Assembly: GCA_030595325.1 (NCBI GenBank)
Contig: JAUVDN010000002.1
Location: 705 to 64,704 of the forward strand
Source: Gammaproteobacteria bacterium
GTDB taxonomy: Bacteria > Pseudomonadota > Gammaproteobacteria > SZUA-229
Reading direction: 5' to 3'
DNA: 64,000 nt
The first letter of the stretch is position 1; each line of letters starts with the position of its first letter. Positions 1,600 to 64,000 of this stretch are shown one piece after another. The notes beneath the pieces are model-generated. The model ran no database searches and was not told the origin of the DNA. It saw nothing but the letters and a program-made list of their open reading frames with translations. A program made the position numbers and the translations under genes.

Positions 1600-1603
1600 A
1601 GCA

Positions 1604-1695: not shown

Positions 1696-1704
1696 TAAGC
1701 TGTT

Positions 1705-4089: not shown

Positions 4090-4098
4090 AATTTAAGT

Positions 4099-4638
4099 AT
4101 GCGATTTGATAAAGTACTTATTATCATTGATGTGCAATTGAAGGCCGATCAATTACAGCAATATTTGCCCTGTTCAGTAAATATTATCGGTAGAACATTG
4201 GCTGCGATTGCTGATGAATACGAAAAAGAAAACAAAACCGGTTACTACCCTGCAATTGATTTCTTTAAGAAGCTGGATAGCGTTGATCCTGATTTAATTG
4301 CATCAGCAGAACAGGTGGCATGGCTGGTGGCAAAGTTGGCACGTGAAACCATCCAGTTAAAATTACGTCCTATCTTTTCATCTGTGCAAATTCAATCGAT
4401 TCAGACGCTTGCGTTTTCTTTGCCTAAGATCCGTCCAAACAAAGCAGATGCTATTGATCAGCTTGCAAAGCATTACACGCCAGACAGTGTGAAAATAGAA
4501 CTTGTGCTTACTATGATGCGTCGTGATTCAGAATCAGAAGACAATCGTGCTGTGTTGTACGCAAGAAAGATGATGTTTCGTTGGTTGGAGTCAGAATTTG
4601 AAATGATTGAGGTGACTAGCTCTAAGTCTTTGCAGTGA
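4099..4638 (+). CDS. Hypothetical protein (179 aa), fourth gene of the MoxR-VWA cassette
   Basis: There is a 9-bp gap after the previous gene on the same strand. No recognisable motif. Confidence 0.5.
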   Translation: MRFDKVLIIIDVQLKADQLQQYLPCSVNIIGRTLAAIADEYEKENKTGYYPAIDFFKKLDSVDPDLIASAEQVAWLVAKLARETIQLKLRPIFSSVQIQSIQTLAFSLPKIRPNKADAIDQLAKHYTPDSVKIELVLTMMRRDSESEDNRAVLYARKMMFRWLESEFEMIEVTSSKSLQ

Positions 4639-21156: not shown

Positions 21157-24100
21157 TTTTTCACCTTCATTTAAAGATAGTGCTTCTTTTATAGGTTTTG
21201 GTTGTTCGATACCATAGCCTTGCGCATAATCAACCTTTAGTTCCCGTAACTTTTTAACGATCTGATCATTTTCCACATATTCGGCAATCGTTTCAATGCC
21301 CATGATGTGGCCAACCTCATTGATGGCTGCGACCATTGCATGGTCTACGTTGTTGTTGACCATGTCAGAGACAAAGCTACCGTCTATCTTTAGGTAATCA
21401 ACGGGTAGACTCTTCAGGTATTGAAAAGATGATAGCCCGCTGCCAAAATCATCTAGCGCAAATTTGAAGCCGTAACTTTTTAGTTTCTTAATAAGAGTTT
21501 TTGCTTTTTGTAAGTTTTTAATCGCGGCAGTTTCAGTCACTTCAAAGCATATGTGCTTTGTGTTTATCTCAAACTCTTCAGCGGTTTCTTTGATGTAATT
21601 AACGATGTTTTTATCATCAATAGTATTGCCTGATAAGTTAATGGAATAGTGTGTTATTTTTTCATCCAAGTCAGAATATTTGTGTATAAATGAAAAAGTT
21701 TTATATATTACATTTCTATCTACAAGGTGCATCAGCTTGTAACGCTCAGCTGCTGGAATAAATGCATTTGGTGGGATGATATTGTTATTCTCATCTAGCA
21801 GGCGAACCAGAATCTCCATATGTTGCTTCATGGGGTCTTTGTCTTTTAGTGGAACGATGGGTTGCGCGTAAAGCTTTAAACGATCATTATCGATTGCTTC
21901 TGAGATACGCGTGGCCCAGTAAGTTTCTTCCTGTCGCCTTATCAGTTCACTATCTTCTTCTTCATAGACATAGATCTGGTTTTCACCATGATCCTTAGCA
22001 GTGTAACAGGCAAGGTCTGCTTTTCTTATTGCGTCGGCAGCATCGGCGGTGTTTTTATCAAGTGGGTTGATGCCGATGCAAACGCCCAGGCTGTAATCAC
22101 AGTCATCCCATCTGAAAACCATATCTGAGATAGTGTTTGTAATCTTATTGGTTATTTTTAAAGTAGCTTCGTGTGAACAATGTTTAAGTATTAAGCCAAA
22201 TTCATCACCACCAAGACGGCTGAGTACATCGTCACCACGGATACACGATTGTATCAATGACGTTATCTGTATCAAACATTGGTCACCAGCGATGTGTCCA
22301 GCGGTATCATTGATCAGTTTAAATCTGTCCAGATCAAGATAACAGAGTACATGATGCTTAGTGTTGTTTATTGCATCATAAACATGATCAGAAAGTTCTA
22401 TATCAAATGCATCTCTATTTAGCAGATTGGTTAAGGGATCATGCGCAGCCTGATGTTTGATGGTGTTTTCAAGTTGACGACGTTGTGTTTCATCATGAAA
22501 TACAATTACTACACCTTCTGCTTTACCGGAAGTATTTAGAATAGGTGAGATAGAGCTCTCGATGTCTTTATCGTTGCCATTCTTGCTTACCAAACTTAGT
22601 ATGCTTTTGTTAATGCTTATGCCGTCATATAAGCAGGACTTAACAACATCGTGAATGGGTTCACCTGTGTCAAGATCTTCAATCCTAAATACTTTTTGTA
22701 CCGCCAGGTTTTTAGCATCATTCAGTGACCATGCCGTCAGTTCTTCAGCAACTTGATTCATGTACTCGATTTTACCGTTAACATTGGTTGTGATGACGGC
22801 GTCACCAATTGAATGCAAGGTAACTTCTGCACGTTCACGTTCAGATTTCATATCGCTGACTAATTGCATGTTGATGATGGCCATCTGTACACTTTGACCA
22901 AACTGTGACATTAACTGTTCGTCGACTTTATCAAACTCATCATGATTTCTGAAAACAGCAATTGCACCGTATGGTTTTTCTTTGAGAGGCACTGGCGTTG
23001 TCAGAACGGATTTGATATTAAATTGCTTCAATAGCTCTTTCTGAGCACGGGGGGTAGTTGTTACATCATTAATTAACAGGTTTTTGTTATTTAATATTGT
23101 CCAGGAGCAGAGGTCACCGTCTTCAACATCAAGTGTTACATTTTCAAGCCTTTCTGACTGTAGCCCACACACTGCATGGAAATGAAAAGTTTGCTTGTCT
23201 TCATGGATGACTGGAAAGGCAGCAAGTTGTGATTTTGTGATTTCTTGTGCCGCCCGGCATATGTTTTTGAAGAATACATCTTCTTCATATCCTTCAGTTA
23301 TTAATCGCGCTATCCAGTTATCGATTAACGCAAGGCCTTGTTGGTAGCGGTTGCTGTCATTGACTTCAATTTGGTATTCAAGTTCGATAAGGGCACGAGA
23401 TGTAGCAATGGTTAAAATGTTTTCGGCAAGATTTGTATCTTCAATCGGCCTGTCACTTGCAATTGCGATCATGCCAATTACATTGTCTTTGTTGTTAATA
23501 AGGCTGACGCCGATATAACTTACTGCATTATTTAATAGCTTTTCTGTGCAATCCGGAAAATAATTTGAAAAGTCACGGTTGTGTACAAGCCTGCCACTTT
23601 TTATAACTTCTTCACAGGGAGTGTCAGCTAACGAATAAGTCATGTTATTGCTGAACATTCCATGATCCAACAGGCCGATTATTTCTGCGCTTGCCCCAGA
23701 AGAGCTGATTTTATTAATGTATGCATATTCGACATCTAATGCGGTACATAAGGTATTGAGCAGAGTGATCAATCGACCTTCGTTGTCGCCACTATTGCTT
23801 TTTTTATCGATACTGACTAATTGGTATAGGGCTTTTTCTGTTTTAGCACGCAGGTTGATTTCATCGTTTAGTTTAGTATTACTTTCAGATAATTCATCCT
23901 GACTTTTTCGCAGAGTTATAAAGATATATAAGATATAAAATATTAAATAGACAGTGCATAGAAACAGTAATATATTAAAAATTTGAGTATTATTGTTTTG
24001 CTTCTTTTTTAGTTCAGAAACATTGTTTTTTAATATAATGATTTGCTTCTCAGTGTTTAATGAGTTAAATCGCTTCAGCGTCTCGTCTATCTCAGGAAGC

Positions 24101-24702
24101 TTCTCGATAATCATCAAGCTGTGGTTGATCAGAGCATTGGTATCTGTATCTGGTTTGTTATTCAATCTGTCGATGAGTGGATAGATCTTATTGGCGATGT
24201 TGTTCTTTGGGTATTCATTATATTCTAAAAGCAGGGTAACAAGTTCTGCTGTAGTTCGAAGCTGTTGCTTGGATTGTGATTTTGGTTTAACAGAATAGAG
24301 TTCTGTGCTCACGTTGAAAATATAAAACAATGAGTTCTGAAGGATGGAATGATGAGTCTTAAAATCTTCAACTAAAATTGACTGGTGAGTAATTGCATTT
24401 TCTATGCTGCTGATTACATCGATACCAATTTCTTCTGCTGCAACGTGGCTCTCATTTAGGTAGGCGACGTTACTGTTTAGGTCGTTAAGTGTTTTGTTGA
24501 GTGTGTCGTATTGCTGAATCTGATTGCTTCTGTAGCGTAATAGATCACGGTGAAGTTGTACCTGTAAATCTTGTATCTCTTCGATCGTTGACAGTGTCTT
24601 GTCAAGAGGCAGGTCACTAAATATGCTCTTATAGAATAGAAAGGTGATAACTGCAAACAGCAGTACTATCCCTACCCAGTAATTTACATTTCCCTTGTTC
24701 AT
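21121..24702 (-). CDS. Membrane-anchored multidomain c-di-GMP signalling protein (periplasmic helical sensor, GAF, PAS, GGDEF, EAL)
   Basis: Two TM segments flank a roughly 230-aa periplasmic region. A GGDEF motif (LGGDEFGLIL) and a C-terminal EAL domain (FEVTETAAIKNL...DDFGSG) are present. Confidence 0.85.
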   Translation of the reverse strand: MNKGNVNYWVGIVLLFAVITFLFYKSIFSDLPLDKTLSTIEEIQDLQVQLHRDLLRYRSNQIQQYDTLNKTLNDLNSNVAYLNESHVAAEEIGIDVISSIENAITHQSILVEDFKTHHSILQNSLFYIFNVSTELYSVKPKSQSKQQLRTTAELVTLLLEYNEYPKNNIANKIYPLIDRLNNKPDTDTNALINHSLMIIEKLPEIDETLKRFNSLNTEKQIIILKNNVSELKKKQNNNTQIFNILLFLCTVYLIFYILYIFITLRKSQDELSESNTKLNDEINLRAKTEKALYQLVSIDKKSNSGDNEGRLITLLNTLCTALDVEYAYINKISSSGASAEIIGLLDHGMFSNNMTYSLADTPCEEVIKSGRLVHNRDFSNYFPDCTEKLLNNAVSYIGVSLINNKDNVIGMIAIASDRPIEDTNLAENILTIATSRALIELEYQIEVNDSNRYQQGLALIDNWIARLITEGYEEDVFFKNICRAAQEITKSQLAAFPVIHEDKQTFHFHAVCGLQSERLENVTLDVEDGDLCSWTILNNKNLLINDVTTTPRAQKELLKQFNIKSVLTTPVPLKEKPYGAIAVFRNHDEFDKVDEQLMSQFGQSVQMAIINMQLVSDMKSERERAEVTLHSIGDAVITTNVNGKIEYMNQVAEELTAWSLNDAKNLAVQKVFRIEDLDTGEPIHDVVKSCLYDGISINKSILSLVSKNGNDKDIESSISPILNTSGKAEGVVIVFHDETQRRQLENTIKHQAAHDPLTNLLNRDAFDIELSDHVYDAINNTKHHVLCYLDLDRFKLINDTAGHIAGDQCLIQITSLIQSCIRGDDVLSRLGGDEFGLILKHCSHEATLKITNKITNTISDMVFRWDDCDYSLGVCIGINPLDKNTADAADAIRKADLACYTAKDHGENQIYVYEEEDSELIRRQEETYWATRISEAIDNDRLKLYAQPIVPLKDKDPMKQHMEILVRLLDENNNIIPPNAFIPAAERYKLMHLVDRNVIYKTFSFIHKYSDLDEKITHYSINLSGNTIDDKNIVNYIKETAEEFEINTKHICFEVTETAAIKNLQKAKTLIKKLKSYGFKFALDDFGSGLSSFQYLKSLPVDYLKIDGSFVSDMVNNNVDHAMVAAINEVGHIMGIETIAEYVENDQIVKKLRELKVDYAQGYGIEQPKPIKEALSLNEGEKSPSLKIIHNKP

Positions 24703-25742
24703 GATTCCGCGTCCAGCGGTATGTTCTTGTATTCACCAGTTAAGGTGTTAAGAAAAGCTTTAATATACAGTACCTCGTCAGTAGACAGTGATCGTCCTAG
24801 CTGAGTTTTTCCCATGATGCTGATGGCTTCTTCGATAGTCTCTGCGCTGCCATCGTGTAGATAGGGTGCAGTCACTGCGATATTTCTTAATGATGGTACC
24901 TTGAATACATAGGCATCCACCAAGCGGTCTGTGATGTTTATTCTTCCGTAGTCTGGTTTTTTAATGTCGCCACGTTCAGCGATATAGTTGTAGAAAACGC
25001 CAAACTTCTGATACAGGTTACCACCGATATTGATTCCCTGATGACAGGAGATACAGCCGAGTTCTTTAAAAATTTTATAACCTTTAATCTCGTCATCATT
25101 TAGTATGTCATCTTCACTTCTGAGGTGCTGGTCAAATTTTGAATTAGGTGTAATAAGTGTTTTTTCGAACTCGACGAGCGAGTTGATGATATTTTCTTTT
25201 GTAACGCCATCTTTATAAATAGCGTTAAAGTCATTTGAGAGTTCCTGATCACTACTGATCGCAGTAACGGCATTATCCCAGTTATTATCAAATTCATGAG
25301 TGCTTGTCATTGCCATGTTGATTTGATCTTGCAGCGTCTTAGCAGCACCATCCCAGTTTTGCCTGAAGTTATATTGTGCATTAAAGATGCTGGGTGTGTT
25401 TATAATATGTTGTTCGCCTGATATTGATATCCCGATAGGCAGATTGTCATCGCCACCGGATGTTAGCTGGTGACAACTGATGCATGCGATTTGGTCGTTC
25501 TTAGACAAACGAGTTTCAATAAACAGCTTTTCGCCTAGTTCAGCTTTACCCTTGTCGACATTGATTTTAAGTGGAATAGGGAAGATTGGTTCTTGGCGTA
25601 AGTAGTTTTCACTCTCTGCGAGCACAGCGGTGCTCATTGTACATAGTAGGGATATTGCTATGTATGATGTGTGTGTGGAAAAATTGAACTGTGGCAGGTG
25701 TTTAATTGATAACATTTCGAGCAAAATCGCTGTAAAATCCAT
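24699..25742 (-). CDS. Di-haem cytochrome c peroxidase (CCP/MauG family)
   Basis: Two CxxCH motifs (CISCHQ twice) and a signal peptide. The gene overlaps the downstream GGDEF-EAL gene by 4 bp. Confidence 0.8.
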   Translation of the reverse strand: MDFTAILLEMLSIKHLPQFNFSTHTSYIAISLLCTMSTAVLAESENYLRQEPIFPIPLKINVDKGKAELGEKLFIETRLSKNDQIACISCHQLTSGGDDNLPIGISISGEQHIINTPSIFNAQYNFRQNWDGAAKTLQDQINMAMTSTHEFDNNWDNAVTAISSDQELSNDFNAIYKDGVTKENIINSLVEFEKTLITPNSKFDQHLRSEDDILNDDEIKGYKIFKELGCISCHQGINIGGNLYQKFGVFYNYIAERGDIKKPDYGRINITDRLVDAYVFKVPSLRNIAVTAPYLHDGSAETIEEAISIMGKTQLGRSLSTDEVLYIKAFLNTLTGEYKNIPLDAES

Positions 25743-37783: not shown

Positions 37784-39988
37784 CTATTTTGAGGTGTGGG
37801 TGAAGCTGCCGTCCCAGTCTGCATCAGGAGGGGTTTCACGGTAATGCATGATACGATCGAGGTAAATTTTATAAATCTTGCGGTCTGGGTCTAGCTGACT
37901 GAGGCCAAAGATTTCTCTTTCAGCCGCGTCCCAGTTCTGTGCGCGGTACTGCTTAATACCGATATGGAATTGCTTGAGCAGTTTTCGGTCAGATTTTGAA
38001 ATATTTTCCAATAAACCCAGTGGTTCGTAGATGGTAACGGGTTTCTTTTTACCCTTAACGCGTACCCGATCGAGTTCGCGGAATTCAAATTCTGGAACTT
38101 CGTGGCGGGTGAATTCACTGGTGATGATATCCACACCGTAGATTTTGGTTAAGCCTTCAAGCCGTGAGCCGAGGTTCACGGAATCACCTAGTACGGTGTA
38201 ATCCACCCGGAACTCTGAACCTTTGTTACCGACATTCATGATTCCGCTACTTACACCGACGCCAACATATATTTCTGGCCACTGTTTTTCGGAAAATTCC
38301 TTTCTTAAGGGGGTCATGCGCTCGACGACGTCGATGGCCGCATTTAGCGCGTGCAGAGCATGCTGCTTATCATCTAGTGGGGCTCCCCAGAATGCCATAA
38401 CGCAATCGCCCATGTATTTATCTATGGTGCCGCGATTGTCATGAATAACCTTTGTAATCGGCGTTAAGAATGCATTGATGTAATCGGTTAGCTCTTTTGG
38501 TTCCAGACCTTCAGAGATAGTGGTAAAACCACGCACATCAGAAAATAAAACAGACATTTCGCGCATTTCACCATCGAGACTGATTTCTTCCATCTTTACA
38601 CTTATTTCATCAACCAGTTCCGGTGGTACGTATTGACCGAAGAGGTGAGCGAGTCGTCGTTTACCACGTGATTCAACGAAGAAGCCATAGGTCATCTGCA
38701 GAGCAAACAACATAACAACGAGTACGACGGATGAAGCTATGGGCAGTACAAGTTGCGCGCTCGTCCAGGCGTAAAAATTAGTGCCGATTAACAGGAGGAT
38801 ACTGCCAATGATAATCAGTGTGGAAAACAGTGCAGAGAGCATTGGCAAGGTGAAAGTCAGGAGGATACCTATAGCGATGATTAAAATAAATTCAAAGCCT
38901 TGCGTGTAACCTGGTGCGTGTAATATTCGTCCATCGAGTATGCCCTGAATGATATTGGCATGCACTTCAACTCCTGGATAAGCAGGTTCGAGAGGAATGG
39001 TTCGCAGATCGAGTAAACCTGGTGCAGAAGTACCAAAGAGTGCAATTTTTCCTTGTAGCTTTGTTTTATCCGCTATTTTATTTAAGACGTCACTTGCTGA
39101 AATATAATCGAAGCTTTTTTGTCTGCCGATGTAAGGGACCAGTATGCCGGATTGATGGTCGACCGGGATGGCTAGTTCACCGATAGTTATCCATTCCAGA
39201 AAAAGATCGTAGGTATCACTGGTTTCTACAACCAGTTCTATAGGCGGTTGACCGGAAGCGACTCTTGCTAAAGCTAAAGCCAGCGACTCATGTAATTCAT
39301 TTTCATATGTCTGCAGTAGTGGTACACGTCTAAACACACCGTCGTCATCTAATAATGGGTTATTGAAAAAACCGCCACTGTAGGCGCTATCCTGAAGCAC
39401 TTTCAGGTTTGCGGTATAACCAACCGTTTTATTTACGGCTAGTTTAGAGAGAATATTTTTATCCAGTTTGGTTATAGCAGTGGGCAGGCCACCTTTTTTT
39501 GTATCGGTGTCCATCACGAAACCCATGACAGTTTTTCTGTCTCTTAAGGATTCTGCAAAACGCAGGTCGTGTTGTAGTGAGGGCATCACCTGATTGTATT
39601 CTTCGATAAATAGAGGGTCGTCCTTCAGCGAACCTTTTGCCATCTTATCGAGCAACTTGGCACCTTCATCGACATCTTCTTCGGCAAACACGATATCGTA
39701 ACCGATGGTTGTAATCTCGTAGTGATCAAATAGAGCATCATTTATTTTTGCGAGAATATTACGGTTCCATGGCCATTGTCCTATTACTTCAAGACTCTTT
39801 TCATCGATATCGATGATGATTACTTTCTTATCGACGTTTTCTGGCAGGGTGATTTTGAGTCGCGCATCATAAGCCTGATTTTCCAGGCTGGTTAAAATCG
39901 GGATATGGATTATATTTCCTACGTGAAGCAGAAATACAAGCGTAAGCAAAAGACTTAATGCGTATCGAATAATTCGTTGAATATCCAC
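37784..39988 (-). CDS. CHASE2-sensor class III adenylate/guanylate cyclase
   Basis: An N-terminal TM helix, a large extracytoplasmic region, a TM cluster, then a cyclase homology domain (FSDVRGFTTISE...GDCVMAFWGAP). Confidence 0.75.
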   Translation of the reverse strand: MDIQRIIRYALSLLLTLVFLLHVGNIIHIPILTSLENQAYDARLKITLPENVDKKVIIIDIDEKSLEVIGQWPWNRNILAKINDALFDHYEITTIGYDIVFAEEDVDEGAKLLDKMAKGSLKDDPLFIEEYNQVMPSLQHDLRFAESLRDRKTVMGFVMDTDTKKGGLPTAITKLDKNILSKLAVNKTVGYTANLKVLQDSAYSGGFFNNPLLDDDGVFRRVPLLQTYENELHESLALALARVASGQPPIELVVETSDTYDLFLEWITIGELAIPVDHQSGILVPYIGRQKSFDYISASDVLNKIADKTKLQGKIALFGTSAPGLLDLRTIPLEPAYPGVEVHANIIQGILDGRILHAPGYTQGFEFILIIAIGILLTFTLPMLSALFSTLIIIGSILLLIGTNFYAWTSAQLVLPIASSVVLVVMLFALQMTYGFFVESRGKRRLAHLFGQYVPPELVDEISVKMEEISLDGEMREMSVLFSDVRGFTTISEGLEPKELTDYINAFLTPITKVIHDNRGTIDKYMGDCVMAFWGAPLDDKQHALHALNAAIDVVERMTPLRKEFSEKQWPEIYVGVGVSSGIMNVGNKGSEFRVDYTVLGDSVNLGSRLEGLTKIYGVDIITSEFTRHEVPEFEFRELDRVRVKGKKKPVTIYEPLGLLENISKSDRKLLKQFHIGIKQYRAQNWDAAEREIFGLSQLDPDRKIYKIYLDRIMHYRETPPDADWDGSFTHTSK

Positions 39989-49798: not shown

Positions 49799-50509
49799 TC
49801 AGCTCAGCAAGAACCCCATCTTTACGCCGGCAACTTCAATCACGTCACCATCGGCTAACGGGTGTTGTTTACCAATCTCGGTGTCATTGACCAGTGGCAT
49901 CTTTTTATCTTTTCCTGCATCAACTACGATAAGGAAATAACCTTTAGGTCGGCGTGTGATGGCCGCTACTTGAACGCCGGGTCTGCCTAGCGTGGTTAAT
50001 ATCTTCGTCAGCTGTAATTCTTTACCTGTATTGGCGCCAGACATGAGTTTAAGTTTTGCTGGTCCAGGACCGCTTGTTGAGGTGCCAGCAGAGGCGAGGT
50101 CAGCAGCAATTTTGCCAATAGATTTTTCTAGGTCTTTGTCGGCTTCTTCGGTTACCGGCATGCCCTTGGCATCCGGACGTATAATCATGGTTTTTTCGAA
50201 TTCACTCTCGCCATCGTCAGCGTTGGCATTTTCATACTTAAGCTCGTGTTTGCCTATGACGATGCTGTCACCATTTTGCAGAGCATGTTTGGTGATTTTG
50301 CTGCCGGCTATAAAGGTACCATTGGTGCTTCCCAGATCTTCGATGAACGAATCATTTAAGATGGTAAGAATTTTCGCGTGATTACCACTGACGGCAAGAT
50401 TGTCGATATGGATGTCGTTATCAGGTTTGCGCCCGATAGTTAGAATCTCTTTATCAAGTTCGAATTCTTTTACAAAGTCGCCGTTAAAGCTGAGTACTAG
50501 TTTAGCCAT
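49799..50509 (-). CDS. Protein with two FHA domains (N- and C-terminal)
   Basis: N-terminal LTIGRKPDNDIHIDNLAVSGNHAKI...GSTNGTFI and C-terminal TLGRPGVQVAAITRRPKGYFLIVVDAG...LVNDTEI FHA patterns. Confidence 0.75.
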   Translation of the reverse strand: MAKLVLSFNGDFVKEFELDKEILTIGRKPDNDIHIDNLAVSGNHAKILTILNDSFIEDLGSTNGTFIAGSKITKHALQNGDSIVIGKHELKYENANADDGESEFEKTMIIRPDAKGMPVTEEADKDLEKSIGKIAADLASAGTSTSGPGPAKLKLMSGANTGKELQLTKILTTLGRPGVQVAAITRRPKGYFLIVVDAGKDKKMPLVNDTEIGKQHPLADGDVIEVAGVKMGFLLS

Positions 50510-50563
50510 GGTGATTCCTTACAATACATTTTGTATGTATTTTTTATTATAAATGTTTCTATA

Positions 50564-51388
50564 TTAAGAGAATATGTCAAAAAAACGAGAAAACAAGCTA
50601 TTTTTAGCTGGAAATGATTTTATTGGTTTAATGAGTAGGGCAGATATATTGTCTTTTCCGCCATGTTCATTGGCCAATCGAATGATTTCCGTCGCTGCTT
50701 TTTCCAGATCATCATAATTATCAAGCATTGCTGTCTTGATAAGATGATCTTCTATCATATCGGTAACACCATCGGAACATAACAGATAGATATCATCAAC
50801 CATTGCAATATCTTCCTGGATATCGATAACGACGGATGCATCTATACCAATTGCCCGGGTGACCAGGTTTTTATTTAATGAGTTTCTTGCCTGTTCGGGC
50901 GTGTAGAAGCCACGGTCAATCAGCTCCTGCATCAGACTGTGGTCACGTGTCACTTGTTCTAGCTCCATGTCACGCAGACGGTACAACCTTGAGTCGCCAA
51001 CATGTGCAACAGTAAAGCGGTTATCGTAAAACAATGTTACGACGACAGTAGTGCCCATGCCGCGATACTGTGAATTTGCTTCCGAAGAATCGTGTACATT
51101 TTTATTTGCAAGGGTAACGGCTTCGTGAATCAGCAGGCTTTCAACGCTATAACCGGTTTCTTCATCAGTATCCCCGGTTTTAAGCTTTTTGAGTTTTTCA
51201 GAGACGGTATCCAGTACCGTGCTAACGGTAATTGCGCTAGCCATTTCACCGCCACGATGACCACCCATACCGTCAGCGAGAACAGCAAGACCGATACTTT
51301 CCTCACAGCCGATGGCGTCCTCGTTATGATCGCGAACCGAGCCAACGTCTGTTTTCCCGTGCAGAAGTAGTTTTCCTTTTAGACTCAT
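50564..51388 (-). CDS. PP2C-family Ser/Thr protein phosphatase
   Basis: GKTDVGSVRDHNEDA...LADGMGGHRGGEMAS...DNISAL. 274 aa. Confidence 0.85.
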   Translation of the reverse strand: MSLKGKLLLHGKTDVGSVRDHNEDAIGCEESIGLAVLADGMGGHRGGEMASAITVSTVLDTVSEKLKKLKTGDTDEETGYSVESLLIHEAVTLANKNVHDSSEANSQYRGMGTTVVVTLFYDNRFTVAHVGDSRLYRLRDMELEQVTRDHSLMQELIDRGFYTPEQARNSLNKNLVTRAIGIDASVVIDIQEDIAMVDDIYLLCSDGVTDMIEDHLIKTAMLDNYDDLEKAATEIIRLANEHGGKDNISALLIKPIKSFPAKNSLFSRFFDIFS

Positions 51389-51391
51389 GTT

Positions 51392-54079
51392 TTAGCCCTT
51401 GTTTTCTGCTGCCATGATTTTCAGACATTTGTTGATATCTTCAACCATTTCTTTACCGCGCTGGTAACGTTTTTCGACGTCTTTTTCCATTGCGCGATTG
51501 ATGATAACAGTGACGCAGCGTGGTAGCTCAGGATTAATGGTTTCTGGGCTTTGGTGCGCTTCGTTGGCAATTTTGTACATCAATGAGGCCATTGAATCGC
51601 CAGTGAAAGGCAGTTTACCGGTAACCATCTGGTAGAGCATGACACCGAGCGAAAAGATGTCTGACTGACCGGTAACTTTTTGTCCGGCTAATTGTTCTGG
51701 TGACATGTAGGAAGGTGTACCTAAAACCATGCCTGTTTTTGTTTTGCTGGAGTCGGTGATGCGTGCAATACCAAAATCAGTAATTTTACATTCATCGGTT
51801 TCAGGGTCCCACATGATGTTTGCGGGTTTGATATCACGATGAACTACGTTGTTCTGGCTGGCATAATCGATACCATCGGCAGAGCGCTGGATAATAGATA
51901 GCACCTGTTTCAATGGCAGTATGGTATCGGGTTTTATATATTTGCTTAGATCAGTTCCTTTCAGGTATTCCATGGCGATGTAGGCGAGGTCGTGTTCTTC
52001 ACCGGCATCAAAGATAGTAACGATGTTTGGATGATTCAGACGACCAGCAGTTTCAGCTTCACGGAAGAATCGCTCTTTAACCTCGTCCAGTTCGTCATCT
52101 TCAAACTCTTGCGACAAGGCCATGGTTTTGATTGCAACGACACGTGAAATTTTAGGGTCTTTACCCAGATAAACAGCGCCCATGGCGCCTTTACCCAGTT
52201 CGCGTTCCACTTCGTAACGGCCAAGCATTGGTTTTTCAACACCGCCACCTTCTATTATTAGGGTGCCGCCAGGTGAGGAGCCGCCACCACCGCCAAGAAT
52301 AACGGTTTCTTCTAGCGACTGGGCACGGTTAGAGCGCGTCTTGATATCACGGAATTTGTCATCGAACTCAGTCATGCAGTCGTACACTGATTTGGCTTTG
52401 TTGAACTGGCGTTTGCGCTCAAAATCCAGTGCCAAATTATAGAATAATTCCATTACAGATTTATCCATTGGCAGCTTGCGGAATTTTTCAAACGCCATAT
52501 CCAGTTGTCCCTGTCCTTGCAGCGACAGACCCAGCATGCGGTTGCTTTCGGCAGATTCAATATCAAGTCTCGCTTTGCCTTTCTCAGACATAAAGAAGCG
52601 TTTAGTGGTTAATAGTATGTGCCCACCTGCGAGTAGCAGGGCAGGCATCATCAGCTGTAGCCACATGCCTTGCGTAGTCATCATAATGTAGTGAATGATA
52701 AATAAGGCGAATAAAGTGATACCGGTGATAGCAAAACCGACAACAGCATTTAGTTTTGGCAGTAGCAGCATGAGATACAGCGCAACTAAAAGAAAGGCGC
52801 CTATTCGAGCATAAAAGCCCCACTCAGGCTCAACGAAAAAATCTTCGTTAAGAATACTTGAGACGGAATGCGCCAGTGTCACCACGGGTGACATAGTCGG
52901 GTCGATTGGTGTCACAAAAGTATCACCAACACCCAGAGCGGTTGCACCAATCAGGACAATTTTGTCTTTGTACTTATCAGCAGGAATCTTGCCTTGCAGT
53001 ACATCAAAGAATGAGTCGATAGGAAAGGCGCTTTTAAAATCTTCATCGTGGTAGAAGAAGGTGTTCATTAACGAGTAACCATCTGTTTTGATGTTCAGGC
53101 GCCCTAGCTGCACATCTGAACCAACAGTAATCTGAATGTCATTAATGTCCAGATTTAAACCTTTCGCTGCTAACATCAACGCCATTGACGGGTAGAGGTC
53201 ACCATAATAATCGATAATAAGCGGTTCGGTGCGAATGCCGCCATCAACATCGGGCAGTGCGACTAAAGCACCAATAGCATTCGCCTGTTCACCCAGGATA
53301 GCTATCGGCAGGTAAGCATCACTCATCGGTAGCGGCTGGAAACCTTCCGGGTTAGTAATAGAGTTATCTATAATATTGTCTTCGAGTAATCGGTTCTGGG
53401 TTACATAGTCTGGAAATGGATTATCCGGCTCACCAAAAGGTGTGCCTGGTACGTAGGGCATATTGAACACGACATTGCCGGCATTTTGCATGCTCTGGGC
53501 AAGTATATTGTCTGTATCCAGAATGGTCTCAGCTGAGTTTATGTACTCCATGTATGCGGCTAGCTCTTCAGCAACCTGATTGCGTAAGGGAGACGCTTCC
53601 AGTGTGTCAGCAATATTATCAACGGCAGTTTTGCCATTAGCATCACGTTTGTCTTTGACCAGTTCACGGCTGCTTTCAATAACTTCGGCAAGTTCTTCAA
53701 CATAGCCTGGCACGCCAGAGATGCTGCTTTCTTCAAAGGCTTGTCTTAGTTCACGAAGAAAATGCAGGCCGGGATCAAGTTGAGGTTCTGAAAAAAATAC
53801 GGTTTGACCAACGGCTTTGGCGCCACCTTCGGCGAGGATGTCATGCATCTGTGCGTGAATATCACGAGACCAGGGCCAGCGACCTATGTTGGCAATACTT
53901 TGGTCATCGATTGCGATGATGGCTATCTTGTCACTTGCGAATCGATTCGATGATTTGACACCGAAATCGTATGCGTTTCGTTCCATGCTGGCGATAAAGT
54001 CAGAGCCAGAAAGTGTCAGAAAAATAAATGTAATGATAAGACCGGTAAACCAGTCACTTTTTAAAACTCCGCTCTTCAT
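51392..54079 (-). CDS. CHASE2-sensor transmembrane Ser/Thr protein kinase
   Basis: An N-terminal TM helix, a roughly 380-aa extracytoplasmic region, a 3-TM block, a Gly-rich linker, and a C-terminal Hanks kinase domain (LGKGAMGAVYLG, VAIKTM, HRDIKPANIM, DFG). Confidence 0.8.
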   Translation of the reverse strand: MKSGVLKSDWFTGLIITFIFLTLSGSDFIASMERNAYDFGVKSSNRFASDKIAIIAIDDQSIANIGRWPWSRDIHAQMHDILAEGGAKAVGQTVFFSEPQLDPGLHFLRELRQAFEESSISGVPGYVEELAEVIESSRELVKDKRDANGKTAVDNIADTLEASPLRNQVAEELAAYMEYINSAETILDTDNILAQSMQNAGNVVFNMPYVPGTPFGEPDNPFPDYVTQNRLLEDNIIDNSITNPEGFQPLPMSDAYLPIAILGEQANAIGALVALPDVDGGIRTEPLIIDYYGDLYPSMALMLAAKGLNLDINDIQITVGSDVQLGRLNIKTDGYSLMNTFFYHDEDFKSAFPIDSFFDVLQGKIPADKYKDKIVLIGATALGVGDTFVTPIDPTMSPVVTLAHSVSSILNEDFFVEPEWGFYARIGAFLLVALYLMLLLPKLNAVVGFAITGITLFALFIIHYIMMTTQGMWLQLMMPALLLAGGHILLTTKRFFMSEKGKARLDIESAESNRMLGLSLQGQGQLDMAFEKFRKLPMDKSVMELFYNLALDFERKRQFNKAKSVYDCMTEFDDKFRDIKTRSNRAQSLEETVILGGGGGSSPGGTLIIEGGGVEKPMLGRYEVERELGKGAMGAVYLGKDPKISRVVAIKTMALSQEFEDDELDEVKERFFREAETAGRLNHPNIVTIFDAGEEHDLAYIAMEYLKGTDLSKYIKPDTILPLKQVLSIIQRSADGIDYASQNNVVHRDIKPANIMWDPETDECKITDFGIARITDSSKTKTGMVLGTPSYMSPEQLAGQKVTGQSDIFSLGVMLYQMVTGKLPFTGDSMASLMYKIANEAHQSPETINPELPRCVTVIINRAMEKDVEKRYQRGKEMVEDINKCLKIMAAENKG

Positions 54080-57761: not shown

Positions 57762-60296
57762 ATGAAAAGAATACTTATCAATGCGGTCCAGAAAGAGGAA
57801 GTACGCGTGGCCATGGTAGATGGTCAGCAACTTTACGATCTGGACGTGGAAGTCCCATCACGGGAACAGAAAAAATCCAACGTTTACAAAGGTAAAATTA
57901 CCCGCGTAGAACCAAGCTTAGAAGCTTGTTTTGTTGATTATGGCGCTGAGCGTCATGGATTTTTACCCTTTAAAGAAGTGTCGCGCATGTACTTCACCGA
58001 GGAAGCGCAACAATCATCCGGTCGCCCCGATATCCGCACCGCCATCAAAGAAGGCCAGGAAATTGTTATCCAGGTTGAAAAAGAGGAGCGTGGCAATAAA
58101 GGTGCTGCATTAACAACATTTATTAGTCTGGCAGGGCGCTACCTAGTGCTTATGCCCAACAACCCGCGTGCTGGCGGTGTCTCCCGTCGTATCGAAGGTG
58201 AAGATCGTAGCCTTATCCGTGAAGCTTTAAGTCAGCTGGAAGTGCCAAATGGCATGGGGTTAATCGTGCGCACTGCAGGTGTAGGCCGTAATTCAGAAGA
58301 ATTACAGTGGGACCTGAATTATCTGTTGCAGCTGTGGACTGCATTTGAAAAAGCCGCCGCTGAGAGACCTTCGCCATTTTTGATCTATCAGGAAAGTGAT
58401 GTAACAACCCGTGCCTTAAGGGATTATTTTAGAAGTGATATAACAGAAGTGCTAATCGATTCAAAAGATGTCTATGATTCAGCAATCGACTTCGTTTCAC
58501 AGGTTATGCCGAACAGCATACAAAAAATAAAATACTATGATGATACGGTTCCATTATTTAACCGTTTTCAGGTGGAGAATCAGATTGAGTCGGCGTATCG
58601 CCGCGAAGTGACGCTACCTTCGGGTGGTGCAATCGTTATCGATCACACGGAAGCCTTAATCTCTATCGATATTAACTCGGCGCGAGCAACAAAAGGCAGT
58701 GATATCGAAGAGACAGCAACCAATACTAATCTGGAAGCGGCCGATGAAGTGGCGCGCCAGCTACGCTTGCGTGACCTAGGTGGTTTGGTGGTGATTGATT
58801 TCATCGATATGATGAATAATCGCAATCAGCGTGCTGTTGAAAATAGACTCAATGAAGCGGTGCAAAATGACCGTGCTCGGGTACAGGTAGGTCGTATTTC
58901 ACGATTCGGTCTGCTTGAGATGTCACGCCAGCGTCTAAAACCTTCTCTAGGTGAGTCAACACAGATAGTTTGTCCCCGTTGTACCGGGCAAGGAACGATA
59001 CGTACCGTTGAATCATTATCACTGTCTCTGGTACGTATACTGGAAGAAGAGGCATTGAAAGCAGGAACTGCACGTGTAGATATTCAAGTACCTATTGATG
59101 TCGCGACCTATATGCTGAACGAGAAACGTAAAGTAATTCATGATATTGAAAAGCTAAGCGGTGTTCATGTTTTGATTGTGGCTAACCCGACATTGGAAAC
59201 GCCGCAATACAAGGTTGATCGTGTTCGTAAGGCTGATTACGATGAAAATGACGAAACTGCCAGCTACCAACGTGCTGACATTGATAGTGAATACAATGTC
59301 GATGTAACACAGGAAAAACCCATACAGTTAGAAAAAGCGGCGGTATCATCAATATCGCCGGGCAAGCGTCCTGCAGCAAAACCTGCAGCAAAACCTGCAG
59401 CAAAATCAGCAGCAAAATCAGCAGCAAAATCAGCAGAAGTTGCTGCAGAGAAAACCGCTAGTAAAGGTTTGTTTAGCAAGATCGTTTCTATGTTCAGCAG
59501 TGAAGAAGAGGTCGAAGAGGAGAAGCCTGCAACAAAACAAAGTGCAGGTAGAAGTCGTAACCAGCGCTCTGGTCAGCGAAATAACCAGAATCGTAACCGT
59601 AATCGCAATCGAAATCGTAACCGCAAACCAGCAAATAAATCCGACAATAAGCAGGAAGAAGCTGGACGTAACAACGCGAAATCGGCAGGTAATAAGCCGC
59701 AAGCTAACAAGTCAGCCAGTAAGTCATCAAACCAGCCATCAAGCAAGAGCAAGCAGGCTGACGAGGCAACTGAACAGTCGAAGGAAGGTGCTAAGTCGGG
59801 TAATCAGCAGAACCGTAATCGCAACCGTAACCGCAATAGAAATCGCACAAAGGATAATGAGCGTAAAGACGGGCAGGCTGGCGAGCAGAAAAATGATGCT
59901 GGTACGCAGCAAAATGTAAGTGCCCAGGACCCTACAAACAAGGACTCTACAAACCAGGGCTCTACCAATCAGGGCTCTGCTAATAAGGAATCTGCTAATA
60001 AGGGTTCGTCGAATAAAGACTCTGCTGATAAAGCGCCCGTTAATAAGGCGCCTGTTAGCAAACCAGCAGCACAGTCTAAACCACAAGAGAGTAAATCTAC
60101 GCGCTCTGATAATACGAGCTCAGATAATGCCAGTTCAGGGGTAAAGAAAGCGCCTGTTGCCAGTAAACCGGCCGAAAGCAAGCCGGCTGAAAGCCAATCA
60201 GCTGAGAGAAAACCAGCGCCAAAAGAGAAATCCTCAGCGGATGTTCAGCCACAATCAAATGAAAATAGACCGGCCACTTCTGTTATCGATAAGTAG
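57762..60296 (+). CDS. rne: Ribonuclease E, with repetitive low-complexity C-terminal half
   Basis: The N-terminus [30 protein letters not shown]...[27 protein letters not shown] is nearly identical to E. coli RNase E. The C-terminus has RNRNRN and PAAK repeats. Confidence 0.92.
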
Positions 60297-60440: not shown

Positions 60441-61724
60441 ATGTTTTCCAAAGATACAAAGATTGACGGTTATGACGAAGCGTTATGGGCAGCGATGCAG
60501 CATGAATACCAGCGTCAGGAAGAACATATAGAACTAATCGCTTCTGAAAATTATGCCAGTCAACGTGTTATGCAGGCGCAGGGATCGGTATTAACCAACA
60601 AATATGCTGAAGGCTATCCAGCGCGTCGTTATTACGGCGGTTGTGAGAATGTCGATGTAGCAGAGCAGCTGGCAATTGATCGAGTGAAAGAATTATTTGG
60701 CGCGGGTTATGCCAACGTGCAACCGCATTCAGGTTCACAGGCAAATGCGGCGGTTTATATGGCGTTATGTAAGCCGGGTGATACTGTCTTAGGTATGTCA
60801 TTGGCGGATGGTGGTCACTTAACACATGGTTCGCATGTAAGTTTTTCTGGAAAAATATACAACGCAGTTCAGTACGGTTTGAACAATGAAACCGGCATTG
60901 TCGATTATGACGAGATTCAACGACTGGCTGATGAGCACAAACCCAAAATGATCGTGGCCGGCTTTTCTGCTTATTCGCGGATAATGGATTGGGATCGTTT
61001 TCGTACAATTGCTGATTCGTGCGGTGCTTATCTTTTTGTTGATATGGCGCACGTTGCCGGTTTGATTGCGGCAGGGTTATATCCAAACCCTGTTGGTGTT
61101 GCTGATGTGGTCACATCAACTACACATAAGACACTTCGTGGTCCACGCGGCGGTATCATCTTGGCGGGTGAAACTTCATTGATGAACAATAAAGATATTG
61201 CTAAAAAATTAAACTCAGCTATTTTCCCTGGCACACAGGGTGGTCCTTTAATGCATGTTATTGCGGCGAAGGCGGTATCGTTCAAAGAAGCACAAGAGCC
61301 AGCGTTTGCCGTGTACCAGAAGCAGGTCATCGTCAACGCTCAAGCAATGGCAAAGGTTGTTTTGGATAGAGGTTATAAAGTGGTTTCAGGTGGCACAGAT
61401 AATCACCTGTTTCTGTGGGATCTCACGACTAAGAGTTTAACCGGTAAAGTCGTTGAAGCGGAGCTGGGTAAAGCGCATATCACAGTGAATAAAAACGCGG
61501 TGCCAAATGACCCGCAATCACCGTTTGTGACCAGTGGTATCCGTGTTGGTACGCCGGCAATGACCACACGCGGATTTAACGAACAGGATGCAACAGATCT
61601 TGCTACCTGGATGTGCGACATCATCGATAGTATTGCCGATGATATAGCGGATACATCGATTGTCGACAGCGTTCGTGAAAAGGTGACGGCAATCTGTGCG
61701 CGTTTACCGGTCTACGAAAAGTAA
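60441..61724 (+). CDS. glyA: Serine hydroxymethyltransferase
   Basis: 427 aa, with the PLP-site region [13 protein letters not shown]. Confidence 0.92.
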
Positions 61725-61733
61725 TAATTTAAT

Positions 61734-62207
61734 ATGTATTGTCCATTCTGCTCAATGCCTGATACTCGCGTAATAGATTCGCGATTGTCCAGTGACGGTG
61801 ATCAGGTTCGCCGTCGCCGTGAGTGTGTTTCATGCAATGAGCGTTTTACCACGTACGAAAGTGCAGAGTTAAATATGCCTCGTATCGTGAAACAGGATGG
61901 CAGTCGTATGCCGTTTAAAGAAGAAAAGTTGGCTTCGGGTGTAATGCGCGCTTTGGAGAAACGCCCGGTAAGTACCGAACAGATCGATGATGCGCTTAAC
62001 CGGATAAAGCACCAGCTATTGGCGGCAGGTGAGCGCGAAATTAGCTCAGGCATAATAGGTAATTTGGTAATGGAAGAGTTGCTGGCACTGGATCAGGTTG
62101 CCTATATTCGTTTTGCCTCGGTTTATCTGGACTTTAGTGACGTCAATGCATTTCGTGATGCCATAGAAAAAATTGAGAAAACGAAAGCAAGTAAAAAGAG
62201 TCGTTAG
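61734..62207 (+). CDS. nrdR: Transcriptional repressor NrdR
   Basis: Zinc ribbon ([17 protein letters not shown]...[11 protein letters not shown]) plus an ATP-cone. Confidence 0.9.
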
Positions 62208-62223
62208 CGGCTAATCGGCACCG

Positions 62224-63336
62224 ATGACAAAAGCGATGAATAATCACGTCGAATTTATGCAGTGTGCGATTAGGCTGGCTAAGAAAGGTTTATATAGCAC
62301 TGATCCAAACCCCTGTGTTGGTTGCGTTATCGTTAAGAACGGTGAAATTGTTGGCGAAGGCTGGCACCAGCAAGCCGGTGAAGGTCATGCCGAAGTTAAT
62401 GCGCTAAAGCAGGCCGGTAGTAATGCCGAAGGCGCGACGGTATATGTCACACTGGAGCCGTGTAGTCATACCGGAAAAACACCGCCGTGCGCAGATGCGC
62501 TAATAGCGGCTGGTGTAAAAAAAGTTTTTATAGCGATGATGGATCCTAACCCACTGGTTGCTGGCAGTGGCTTGAAAAAGCTACAGGATGCCCATATAGA
62601 AACCGACAGTGGATTGCTTGAAATTCAGGCGCGAGAATTAAATCCGGGTTTTGTGAAACGGATGGAATCTGGGCGACCTTACGTACGTGTTAAAATGGCA
62701 ATGAGCCTGGATGGCCGCACCGCGATGGCATCAGGTGAAAGTCAATGGATTAGCAGCGATGCCTCGCGACAAGATGTGCAGCGAATGCGAGCTCAAAGCT
62801 CAGCGATTTTGACCGGGATAGACACGGTACTGGCAGATGACCCGTCGATGAATGTTAGATTGACCGCTGAAGAGCTGGGTATTGAGTCAATTACTAAACT
62901 AGTCAGGCAGCCAAAACGTATCGTGCTTGATAGTCAGTTAAGGATGCCTGCTGCAGCAAAGATATTCTCAGTTGATGGTGACTGCATTGTATATACCACG
63001 GTAAATGTGGATAACAAAGATAGTCGCCCGTATACAATTGAAAGTATTGCATCAGCAGATGGACATGTGGATCTTCATGCGTTGATGAAGGATTTGGCAG
63101 ATAAAGAAATTAATCTGCTTCATGTGGAAGCAGGTTCGGTCTTATGTGGTGCTCTTTTAAAAAATGACCTCATTGATGAAATCATTATCTACATGGCGCC
63201 ACATATTATGGGTGATAATGCGAAAGGATTGTTCCACTTGCCCGGATTGGAAAAGATGAAGGATAGGGTTTCGCTTAACATCAAAGATGTGCGATCTATC
63301 GGTAAAGATCTTCGAATCTCTGCGCTTTTAGAGTAG
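62224..63336 (+). CDS. ribD: Bifunctional riboflavin biosynthesis protein RibD (deaminase/reductase)
   Basis: A CMP/dCMP deaminase zinc motif (HAEVNAL...PCSHTGKTPPC) plus a C-terminal reductase domain. It follows glyA-nrdR, as in many proteobacteria. Confidence 0.9.
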   Translation: MTKAMNNHVEFMQCAIRLAKKGLYSTDPNPCVGCVIVKNGEIVGEGWHQQAGEGHAEVNALKQAGSNAEGATVYVTLEPCSHTGKTPPCADALIAAGVKKVFIAMMDPNPLVAGSGLKKLQDAHIETDSGLLEIQARELNPGFVKRMESGRPYVRVKMAMSLDGRTAMASGESQWISSDASRQDVQRMRAQSSAILTGIDTVLADDPSMNVRLTAEELGIESITKLVRQPKRIVLDSQLRMPAAAKIFSVDGDCIVYTTVNVDNKDSRPYTIESIASADGHVDLHALMKDLADKEINLLHVEAGSVLCGALLKNDLIDEIIIYMAPHIMGDNAKGLFHLPGLEKMKDRVSLNIKDVRSIGKDLRISALLE

Positions 63337-63344
63337 ATTAATTA

Positions 63345-63435
63345 AAGCAGATTAATTAAAGCGGATTAATTAGAGCAGTGTAAATAGAACAGAGCAAACA
63401 GAACAGAGCAAACAGAACAGAGAAAACAGAACGAT
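63345..63435. repeat. Two adjacent short tandem repeat blocks: (GATTAATTAAAGCR) x3 then (AACAGAGCAAACAG)-like x3.5
   Basis: Direct reading of the ribD downstream region. Confidence 0.75.
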
Positions 63436-63482
63436 ATGTGACTTGAAGCAAAAGTCACATTATTGAAATCAAGAGGTTATTA

Positions 63483-64000
63483 ATGTCTACGGTTGTTGTT
63501 GTAAAAAAATCTGGCAAGGTTTGTATCGCTGCAGATAGTCTAACTAGTTTTGGCGATTTAAAGTTGAGTTCTTCTTATGATGCTGCTCACGATAAAATTC
63601 TGTGTCATGATGAGAATCATCTTGGTATCGTCGGTAGTGCTGCGCATCAGCTGGTGATGGAAAGTGTTTTCTCCAGTAAGAAAATTATCGATAAAAAAGT
63701 TGAAATAGATTTTTCATCGCGTCTGTCTATCTTTGAAACCTTTAGAGCGTTACACCCTATACTGAAAGAAAAATATTTTTTGAATGCCAAAGATGAGGAT
63801 GATGATCCTTACGAGTCAACACAAATAGATGCGTTGATTGCGAACCCCTTTGGTATTTTTGGCGTGCACTCTTTACGAGAAGTCACCGAGTATAAAAAGT
63901 TCTGGGCTATCGGTTCCGGCACAGAGTATGCACTGGGTGCTATGTTTGCAGTTTATGATAAGGCTACGGCAAAAGAGATTGCACATGCAGGTGTTGCAGC
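63483..64000 (+). CDS. HslV/proteasome-beta-like Ntn-hydrolase homolog, partial (runs off the window end)
   Basis: MSTVVVVKKSGKVCIAADSLTSFGD...WAIGSGTEYALGAMFAVYD parallels E. coli HslV ([25 protein letters not shown]...IAIGSGGPYAQAAARALL). An RBS (AGAGG) lies 8 nt upstream. It is not in the ORF track because there is no stop within the window. Confidence 0.55.
   Translation, partial: MSTVVVVKKSGKVCIAADSLTSFGDLKLSSSYDAAHDKILCHDENHLGIVGSAAHQLVMESVFSSKKIIDKKVEIDFSSRLSIFETFRALHPILKEKYFLNAKDEDDDPYESTQIDALIANPFGIFGVHSLREVTEYKKFWAIGSGTEYALGAMFAVYDKATAKEIAHAGVA

What the first reader, a model, noticed from the sequence alone, without database searches (positions are those of the whole stretch)
63483..64000. 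HslV-like (proteasome beta-type) ORF with Ser at position 2 where ribE would be expected after ribD
After glyA-nrdR-ribD the usual next gene is riboflavin synthase. Here instead a strong RBS precedes MSTVVVVKKSGKVCIAADSLTSFGD…AIGSGTEYALGAMFAVYD. This parallels HslV block-for-block, but the nucleophile position carries Ser rather than Thr. It may be a divergent HslV paralog or a distinct bacterial proteasome-homolog family. The window ends before its C-terminus or any partner ATPase can be seen.
Basis: partly seen in the sequence, partly recalled or inferred. Interest (0 to 1): 0.55.

Follow-up and report, generated by a model that had tools for sequence, protein, structure and literature searches.

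The report
Ser-type BPH proteasome homolog in riboflavin operon
The gene after ribD is a member of BPH, a bacterial proteasome-like protein family that is already described and crystallised and whose non-betaproteobacterial members are known to use serine in place of threonine; what the BPH papers I read do not report is that in this group of uncultured marine bacteria the gene always sits between two riboflavin-synthesis genes.

Summary
An ORF starts at ATG 63483 and runs open to the window end, 172 of about 200 codons. AAGAGG lies 6 nt upstream, and Ser follows the initiator Met. It is not HslV. It belongs to BPH (Betaproteobacteria proteasome homologue; Valas & Bourne 2008; Fuchs et al. 2018). 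It matches the two solved BPHs at E 1e-39 and 4e-36, against about 0.5 for HslV. A full-length 95%-identical homolog aligns end to end with both. Its AlphaFold model hits BPH structures first (TM 0.85-0.92) and HslV second. Ser1, Asp17, Lys37, Gly50, the G-S-G motif and the acidic pore loop (KDEDDDPYES) are all present. Fuchs et al. already state that all BPHs outside Betaproteobacteria carry Ser1, so that feature is not new. ribE is not missing. In 56 related gammaproteobacterial genome loci and every testable one of 80 metagenome loci, the order is glyA-nrdR-ribD-BPH-ribE. Spacers are short and no AAA+ gene is adjacent. This riboflavin-operon context is not among the three published BPH contexts. 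It looks vertically inherited from one old insertion. Verdict: a new member of a known kind, of low to moderate interest.

The parts
63483..64000 (+). 5' 172 codons (of about 200) of a Ser1-type BPH gene (proteasome-like N-terminal-nucleophile hydrolase). In precursor numbering: Ser2 (mature Ser1), Asp18, Lys38, Gly51, Gly144-Ser145-Gly146, and the acidic pore loop K103-DEDDDPYES-T113.
63471..63476 (+). Shine-Dalgarno AAGAGG, 6 nt before the ATG. It is conserved as AGAGGTTATTR-ATG across the clade.
63337..63482 (+). 146-nt ribD-BPH spacer. No sigma-70-like promoter or intrinsic-terminator pattern was found in it. It holds two 14-bp tandem arrays (63335-63378 and 63382-63432) and a 9-bp-stem hairpin (63436-63460). 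These are specific to this lineage and are not conserved in most relatives, whose spacers are typically about 10-80 nt.
62224..63336 (+). ribD, the upstream operon neighbour.
   Evidence: TIGR00326, 415 bits against a cut-off of 156
61734..62207 (+). nrdR, part of the same-strand gene string.
60441..61724 (+). glyA, part of the same-strand gene string.

Best explanation
The ORF encodes a Ser1-type member of the BPH family, the HslV-derived 'Betaproteobacteria proteasome homologue'. Shown here: membership of the family by sequence and by predicted fold; a complete proteasome-type active site (Ser1, Asp17, Lys37, Gly50, Ser in G-S-G); no propeptide; the long acidic pore loop typical of BPH; tight same-strand packing between ribD and ribE in all relatives; and no adjacent AAA+ gene in relatives. 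Inferred from the characterised BPHs (Fuchs et al. 2018): methionine aminopeptidase removes Met1 and exposes the Ser1 amino group and hydroxyl as the nucleophile/base pair. The subunits assemble into a homo-oligomeric double ring, tetradecameric in solution for the studied proteins, with the active sites inside. The acidic pore loops gate or select substrates. The complex works without an unfoldase on substrates that are still unknown. In this lineage the gene was inserted once, long ago, between ribD and ribE of the housekeeping glyA-nrdR-rib-nusB string. It is most likely co-transcribed with that string and so expressed constitutively.
For: phmmer against PDB gives 5ovu (C. metallidurans BPH) E 1.4e-39 and 5ovs (T. 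denitrificans BPH) E 4.4e-36, with HslV at E about 0.5. Full-length P0001 (95% identical) aligns over residues 3-194 to residues 2-189 of both BPHs, E 2e-44 and 6e-43. The AF2 model (pLDDT 82, pTM 0.83) hits BPH chains first in Foldseek against PDB (E about 1e-19, TM 0.85-0.92, 40-44% identity). HslV comes next (E about 1e-10, 18-23% identity). The catalytic residues are invariant across 31 family members down to 39% identity, with position 2 being Ser or Thr. The pore loop KDEDDDPYES matches KEDEDDPYES of Cm-BPH and is absent from HslV. Synteny glyA-nrdR-ribD-BPH-ribE holds in 56 of 57 genome loci, and in 62/62 testable upstream and 64/64 testable downstream flanks of metagenome loci. BPH-to-ribE gaps are mostly -1 to 25 nt. 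No promoter or terminator pattern lies in the spacer. BPH is as conserved as the rib enzymes: mean 78% identity against 68-79%. The literature already records Ser1 in all non-betaproteobacterial BPHs, the lack of a partner ATPase, and epoxomicin labelling of Thr1.
Against: No BPH has ever shown proteolytic activity in vitro; Cm- and Td-BPH were inert on peptides and casein. The word 'protease' is therefore inferred from active-site geometry and inhibitor labelling of Thr1-type proteins. No Ser1-type BPH has been studied experimentally. The window stops 28 codons short, so the C-terminus and downstream genes are known only from relatives. Oligomeric state could not be tested. Co-transcription is inferred from spacing and from simple pattern scans only.
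Confidence: 0.88

Rival explanations
1. It is a divergent HslV paralog that still works with an HslU ATPase encoded elsewhere in the genome.
For: BPH descends from HslV according to Fuchs et al.. HslV is the second-best structural match. There are weak hits to the HslV equivalog models. JGI annotates many homologs as HslV. Bacillus subtilis CodW is an HslV with Ser1.
Against: HslV models score 26 bits against cut-offs of 137-158. Identity to HslV structures is 18-23%, against 40-44% to BPH. The long acidic pore loop replaces the short basic HslV loop. Published pull-downs found no HslU bound to BPH, and the HslU-interface residues are not conserved in BPH.
Confidence: 0.04
2. The protein has a function tied to riboflavin biosynthesis. 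Examples would be turnover or quality control of RibD, RibE or the RibH (lumazine synthase) assembly, or hydrolysis of a pathway-related amide. On this view it is kept between ribD and ribE for that reason.
For: The position is invariant in more than 140 loci. These include lineages at 54-61% BPH identity whose rib operon is built differently, with ribE-ribH and no ribBA between. Spacers to ribE are very short or overlapping. In the most diverged lineages BPH is more conserved (58-61%) than the flanking RibD, RibE and RibH (44-51%). Other BPHs also sit inside operons for metabolic enzymes such as PDC and argG.
Against: BPH identity tracks the identity of the rib neighbours (r = 0.93 over 86 loci). 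One ancestral insertion plus vertical inheritance in a very stable housekeeping operon therefore explains the synteny without any functional link. BPHs outside this clade lie in unrelated contexts: argG, PDC and hsp33 in the literature, and GNAT or unknown genes in L055 and L139. No independent acquisition at this site was seen.
Confidence: 0.08

Closest known systems
BPH (Betaproteobacteria proteasome homologue): Thiobacillus denitrificans BPH (PDB 5OVS/5OVT) and Cupriavidus metallidurans BPH (PDB 5OVU); Valas & Bourne 2008 (PMC3235984), Fuchs et al. 2018 (PMC5777263)
   Same: 40-44% identical over the full length. Same predicted fold (TM 0.85-0.92). Same active-site residues at the same mature positions (Asp17, Lys37, Gly50, Ser of G-S-G). 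No propeptide. The same long acidic pore loop (D/E run followed by PYES). No neighbouring AAA+ gene. Ser1 is as reported for all non-betaproteobacterial BPHs.
   Different: The nucleophile is Ser, whereas the two crystallised proteins have Thr. The host is an uncultured marine gammaproteobacterium. The operon context is ribD-BPH-ribE rather than the published argG, pyruvate dehydrogenase or hsp33 contexts. This subclade has a 5-residue insertion (SSKKI, residues 64-68) after helix 1.
HslV (ClpQ), the peptidase of the HslVU ATP-dependent protease
   Same: Same Ntn-hydrolase beta-subunit fold and catalytic residues. No propeptide. Homo-oligomeric double ring. HslV is the evolutionary parent of BPH according to Fuchs et al. 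CodW of B. subtilis also uses Ser1.
   Different: 18-23% identity. It fails the HslV equivalog models. It has the pore-loop insertion and a second insertion. It has an acidic rather than a basic pore. No adjacent hslU. Characterised BPHs form heptameric rings, HslV hexameric rings.
Anbu and 20S proteasome beta subunits
   Same: Membership of Pfam PF00227 and the shared Thr/Ser1-Asp17-Lys33 chemistry.
   Different: No Anbu chain appears in the sequence search at E<=10 or among the 50 best fold matches. 20S beta subunits match only at the fold level (15-20% identity), and they have propeptides and alpha-ring partners.

Membership tests
BPH | Sequence groups with BPH rather than with HslV, Anbu or 20S subunits. 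| tested here: met
   E 1.4e-39 and 4.4e-36 to 5ovu and 5ovs, against about 0.5 to HslV. No Anbu hit.
BPH | Proteasome beta-like fold closest to the solved BPH structures. | tested here: met
   AF2 model of the 95%-identical full-length homolog has pLDDT 82. Foldseek top 6 are all BPH chains, TM 0.79-0.92; HslV comes next at TM 0.6-0.78.
BPH | Active site Thr/Ser1, Asp17, Lys37, Gly50 and Ser of G-S-G (Ser139 in Td-BPH). | tested here: met
   S2, D18, K38, G51 and G144-S145-G146 in precursor numbering. D, K and G are invariant in 31 diverse members.
BPH | No propeptide; the nucleophile directly follows the initiator Met. | tested here: met
   There is a single possible start, with TGA 39 nt upstream in frame. 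All 57 relatives start MST.
BPH | Elongated, highly acidic pore loop. | tested here: met
   KDEDDDPYES aligns to KEDEDDPYES of Cm-BPH and falls in a gap in HslV. It is the lowest-confidence segment of the model, as expected for a flexible loop.
BPH | No partner AAA+ unfoldase gene nearby. | tested here: met
   This cannot be seen in the window itself because it ends. In 56 genome loci, and in all 64 of the 80 metagenome loci with a testable downstream flank, the next gene is ribE. No HslU-like sequence is present in any locus.
BPH | Homo-tetradecameric double ring with internal active sites. | not testable with these tools
   Needs SEC-MALS, EM or SAXS, or a multimer prediction.
BPH | The N-terminal nucleophile reacts with epoxomicin or MG132. 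| not testable with these tools
   This is biochemical. It has been shown only for the Thr1-type Cm- and Td-BPH.
HslV | Scores above the curated cut-off of the HslV equivalog models (TIGR03692, NF003964). | tested here: not met
   26.6 and 25.9 bits against cut-offs of 157.75 and 137.
HslV | Encoded next to hslU. | tested here: not met
   ribE follows in all relatives. No hslU was found in the window or the loci.
HslV | Short pore linker with the basic cluster Arg86/Arg89/Lys90. | tested here: not met
   A 9-residue acidic insertion sits at that position.
Anbu | Sequence or fold similarity to Anbu, and the operon with the COG2307, COG2308 and transglutaminase genes. | tested here: not met
   No Anbu match. 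The neighbours are rib genes.

The most novel reading that the evidence does not exclude
In this gammaproteobacterial lineage BPH is functionally coupled to riboflavin biosynthesis. For example, it might control the stability of RibD, RibE or the lumazine-synthase assembly, or clear enzymes damaged by reactive pathway intermediates. If so, the invariant ribD-BPH-ribE operon would offer the first concrete place to look for the physiological substrate of BPH, a protein that has been inert in every assay so far.
Probability: 0.08. Interest if true: 0.6.

Novelty: new member of a known kind. Interest (0 to 1): 0.22.

Why it matters
BPH is a structurally characterised orphan: it has a complete proteasome-type active site, no known substrate, no known partner and no measured activity. 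This finding adds no new family and no new chemistry, because Ser1 is already documented for non-betaproteobacterial BPHs. What it adds is modest. A large, environmentally abundant clade of uncultured marine gammaproteobacteria (thousands of 90%-identity clusters in metagenomes) carries a Ser1-type BPH that is strongly conserved and fixed inside the riboflavin operon. That is a fourth operon context beside argG, pyruvate dehydrogenase and hsp33. It gives a defined co-expression set for anyone seeking BPH substrates. It also exposes systematic misannotation of these proteins as 'MFS transporter' (NCBI) or 'HslV' (JGI).

Tried and rejected
(1) The first AlphaFold run used a shallow alignment of 24 sequences at 82-90% identity. 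It gave pLDDT 43 and was discarded. A 45-sequence alignment reaching down to 49% identity gave a usable model.

The 7-sequence version returned only members of the same clade at 70-88% identity, so it did not widen the sampling of contexts.

(3) The hairpin and tandem repeats in the ribD-BPH spacer were considered as a regulatory element. The fold is more stable than shuffles (z = -4). However, the sequence is not conserved in relatives apart from a partial copy in the 95% relative, and only the RBS is conserved. I therefore treat them as lineage-specific spacer expansion, not as part of the system. No Rfam family, including the FMN riboswitch, matched anywhere near.

(4) A canonical hslVU was sought in the window and in all fetched loci and none was found. 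This says nothing about the rest of the genome, which could not be searched.

(5) A literature search for any paper linking a proteasome homolog with riboflavin or ribD listed none among the ten shown. The two BPH papers do not mention riboflavin.

(6) Independent insertion of BPH at the same site in different lineages would have argued for a functional link. It was rejected because BPH divergence tracks the divergence of its neighbours.

Full report
**Observation.** The sequence at 63483-64000(+) translates without a stop into 172 residues. ATG 63483 is the only usable start. The nearest in-frame upstream stop is TGA at 63444, and no ATG, GTG or TTG lies between them. AAGAGG at 63471-63476 sits 6 nt before the ATG. 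The three preceding same-strand genes are glyA, nrdR and ribD by NCBIfam equivalog models.

**What the protein is.** Pfam gives only a borderline Proteasome (PF00227) hit of 22.5 bits against a cut-off of 22.4. The NCBIfam HslV equivalogs score 26 bits against cut-offs of 137-158, so it is not HslV. Against all PDB sequences, the two best matches by far are the solved 'Betaproteobacteria proteasome homologue' (BPH) proteins. These are 5ovu (Cupriavidus metallidurans, E 1.4e-39) and 5ovs/5ovt (Thiobacillus denitrificans, E 4.4e-36). HslV chains reach only E about 0.5, and no Anbu chain appears.

The closest database homolog, P0001, is 200 aa and 95% identical. The window therefore lacks about 28 C-terminal codons. 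P0001 aligns from residue 3 to 194 with residues 2-189 of both BPH structures, at E 2e-44 and 6e-43.

An AlphaFold model of P0001 built on a 45-sequence alignment has pLDDT 82.4 and pTM 0.83. The pore-loop segment is the least confident part. Foldseek against the PDB returns the six BPH chains first (E about 1e-19, TM 0.79-0.92, 40-44% identity). HslV chains come next (E about 1e-10, 18-23% identity), followed by 20S beta subunits.

**Active site and family signatures.** The PDB chains are numbered from the mature Thr1: Asp17 and Lys37 fall at chain positions 17 and 37. On that numbering, window Ser2 corresponds to Thr1.
- Window D18, K38 and G51 are Asp17, Lys37 and Gly50.
- The G144-S145-G146 motif carries the counterpart of Td-BPH Ser139.
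- D18, K38 and G51 are invariant in an alignment of 31 family members reaching down to 39% identity. Position 2 is Ser or Thr.
- The pore loop reads KDEDDDPYES, against KEDEDDPYES in Cm-BPH.

These are the features Fuchs et al. 2018 use to describe BPH: no propeptide, a classical proteasome active site, and an elongated acidic pore loop.

**Is Ser at position 1 unusual?** For the proteasome family as a whole it is. For BPH it is not. [quoted passage not shown] They also say BPH occurs in Gammaproteobacteria among other phyla. My own sampling agrees:
- All 57 genome-derived relatives start MST.
- 117 of the 120 closest clusters start MST.
- Among the best 150 representatives of 50%-identity clusters, about 70 start Met-Ser and about 37 start Met-Thr.

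**Where is ribE, and is there an ATPase?** On the contig that carries P0001, the gene is followed at 6 nt by ribE (Lum_binding), then ribBA, ribH, nusB, thiL and pgpA.
- A scan of one genome per GTDB species returned 57 loci. All 56 gammaproteobacterial ones are MAGs labelled Gammaproteobacteria, Thiotrichaceae or Proteobacteria/Pseudomonadota, from marine sediment, crustal-fluid and vent studies. They show glyA-nrdR-ribD-BPH-ribE-ribBA-ribH-nusB wherever the contig reaches, with BPH identity of 54-89%.
- In 80 further metagenome loci of the same clade, ribD is upstream in 62 of 62 testable cases and ribE is downstream in 64 of 64.
- Spacers are short. The ribD-to-BPH gap is typically about 10-80 nt. 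The BPH-to-ribE gap is mostly -1 to 25 nt.
- More distant members (58-61% identity, L140 and L142) keep ribD-BPH-ribE even though their operon continues ribE-ribH-nusB without ribBA.
- No HslU-like or HslV-like sequence is present in the window or in any fetched locus.

Outside the clade the context differs. A Blastocatellia locus (L055) and a 52%-identical metagenome member (L139) lie among unrelated genes, each beside a GNAT acetyltransferase.

**Does the rib context mean a rib function?** The gene is under clear constraint. Its mean identity across the clade is 78%, against 68% for RibD, 71% for RibE, 74% for RibBA and 79% for RibH. In the deepest lineages it is more conserved than its neighbours. 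However, its divergence tracks that of the neighbours (Pearson r = 0.93 over 86 loci). That is what one ancestral insertion followed by vertical inheritance in a very stable housekeeping operon would give. Published BPH contexts are argG/argF, the pyruvate dehydrogenase operon and hsp33. Neither BPH paper mentions riboflavin, and a text search listed no paper linking the two. I therefore treat the rib-operon position as a new, well-supported context and not as evidence of a rib-specific function (about 8% probability).

**Mechanism.**
- Shown: family membership, an intact active site, the absence of a propeptide, the acidic pore loop, operon embedding, and the absence of a neighbouring unfoldase gene.
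- Inferred from the characterised Thr1-type BPHs and from general knowledge of Ntn hydrolases: Met1 is removed by methionine aminopeptidase (Ser is a favourable residue in the position after Met). Free Ser1 acts as the nucleophile, assisted by Lys37 and Asp17. The subunits form a double-ring barrel with internal active sites, tetradecameric in solution for the studied proteins. The acidic pore loops restrict or select substrates. No ATPase is involved.
- The main weakness is that no BPH has yet shown proteolytic activity in vitro and no Ser1-type BPH has been studied at all.

**The spacer.** The 146-nt ribD-BPH spacer in the window is longer than in most relatives. It holds two 14-bp tandem arrays and a 9-bp-stem hairpin. 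Only the ribosome-binding site is conserved across the clade. No promoter-like or terminator-like pattern and no Rfam family falls in the spacer. I regard these features as lineage-specific and not part of the system.

**Verdict.** The finding is a correct observation of a real gene. That family (BPH) and its Ser1 variant are already published and crystallised. The protein is a new member of a known kind. The only new element is its fixed position inside the riboflavin operon of an abundant uncultured gammaproteobacterial clade. Interest is low to moderate (0.22).

Noticed in passing
window 63335-63460: The ribD-BPH spacer holds two 14-bp tandem arrays (AGATTAATTAAAGC x3.1 and AAACAGAACAGAGC x3.6) followed by a hairpin, ATGTGACTT-N7-AAGTCACAT. 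The RNA fold z-score is -4. The features are not conserved in relatives, apart from a partial hairpin in the 95% relative L058.
   Followed up: partly
homologs P0005, P0031, P0045, P0102, P0303 and others: NCBI/nr names these BPH proteins 'MFS transporter', and JGI names them 'ATP-dependent HslUV protease subunit HslV'. Both are misannotations of a 200-aa soluble proteasome-like protein. No NCBIfam model specific for BPH matched.
   Followed up: partly
L055 6901-7392 and L139 1478-1966: In the two BPH loci outside the rib-operon clade (a Blastocatellia MAG and a 52%-identical metagenome contig), a GNAT acetyltransferase gene lies beside BPH. This is curious, because N-terminal acetylation would block an N-terminal nucleophile. 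With only two cases it may be chance.
   Followed up: no
L140 5389-6919 and L142 957-2465: Deeper-branching relatives have ribD-BPH-ribE-ribH-nusB with no ribBA between ribE and ribH. The rib operon architecture therefore differs while the BPH position is kept.
   Followed up: partly
window 63672-63686 (residues 64-68, SSKKI): There is a five-residue insertion after helix 1 relative to other BPHs, including the crystallised ones. It is present only in the window's closest subclade (window, L058, L001) and absent from L024, L047, L052 and L055.
   Followed up: no
window 57762-60296 (+): The RNase E C-terminal half is very low-complexity. It has runs of [23 protein letters not shown] and [24 protein letters not shown] repeats. 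A 670-nt gap separates it from the divergent rluC gene, and no Rfam rne 5'UTR element was called there.
   Followed up: no
window 49799-54079 (-): A cluster of eukaryote-like signalling genes: an FHA-domain protein, a PP2C Ser/Thr phosphatase and an 895-aa protein with a C-terminal Ser/Thr kinase domain.
   Followed up: no
window 547-2964 (+): An AAA_5 (MoxR/dynein-like) ATPase is followed by a DUF2201 protein (putative metallopeptidase plus VWA-like domain), then two ORFs with no Pfam match (2965-4638). It lies 60 kb from the BPH gene, and nothing links the two.
   Followed up: no
window 21121-25742 (-) and 37784-39988 (-): Large signalling proteins: a 1193-aa DAHL-GAF-GGDEF-EAL protein downstream of a di-haem cytochrome c peroxidase, and a 734-aa CHASE2-adenylate/guanylate cyclase.
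   Followed up: no
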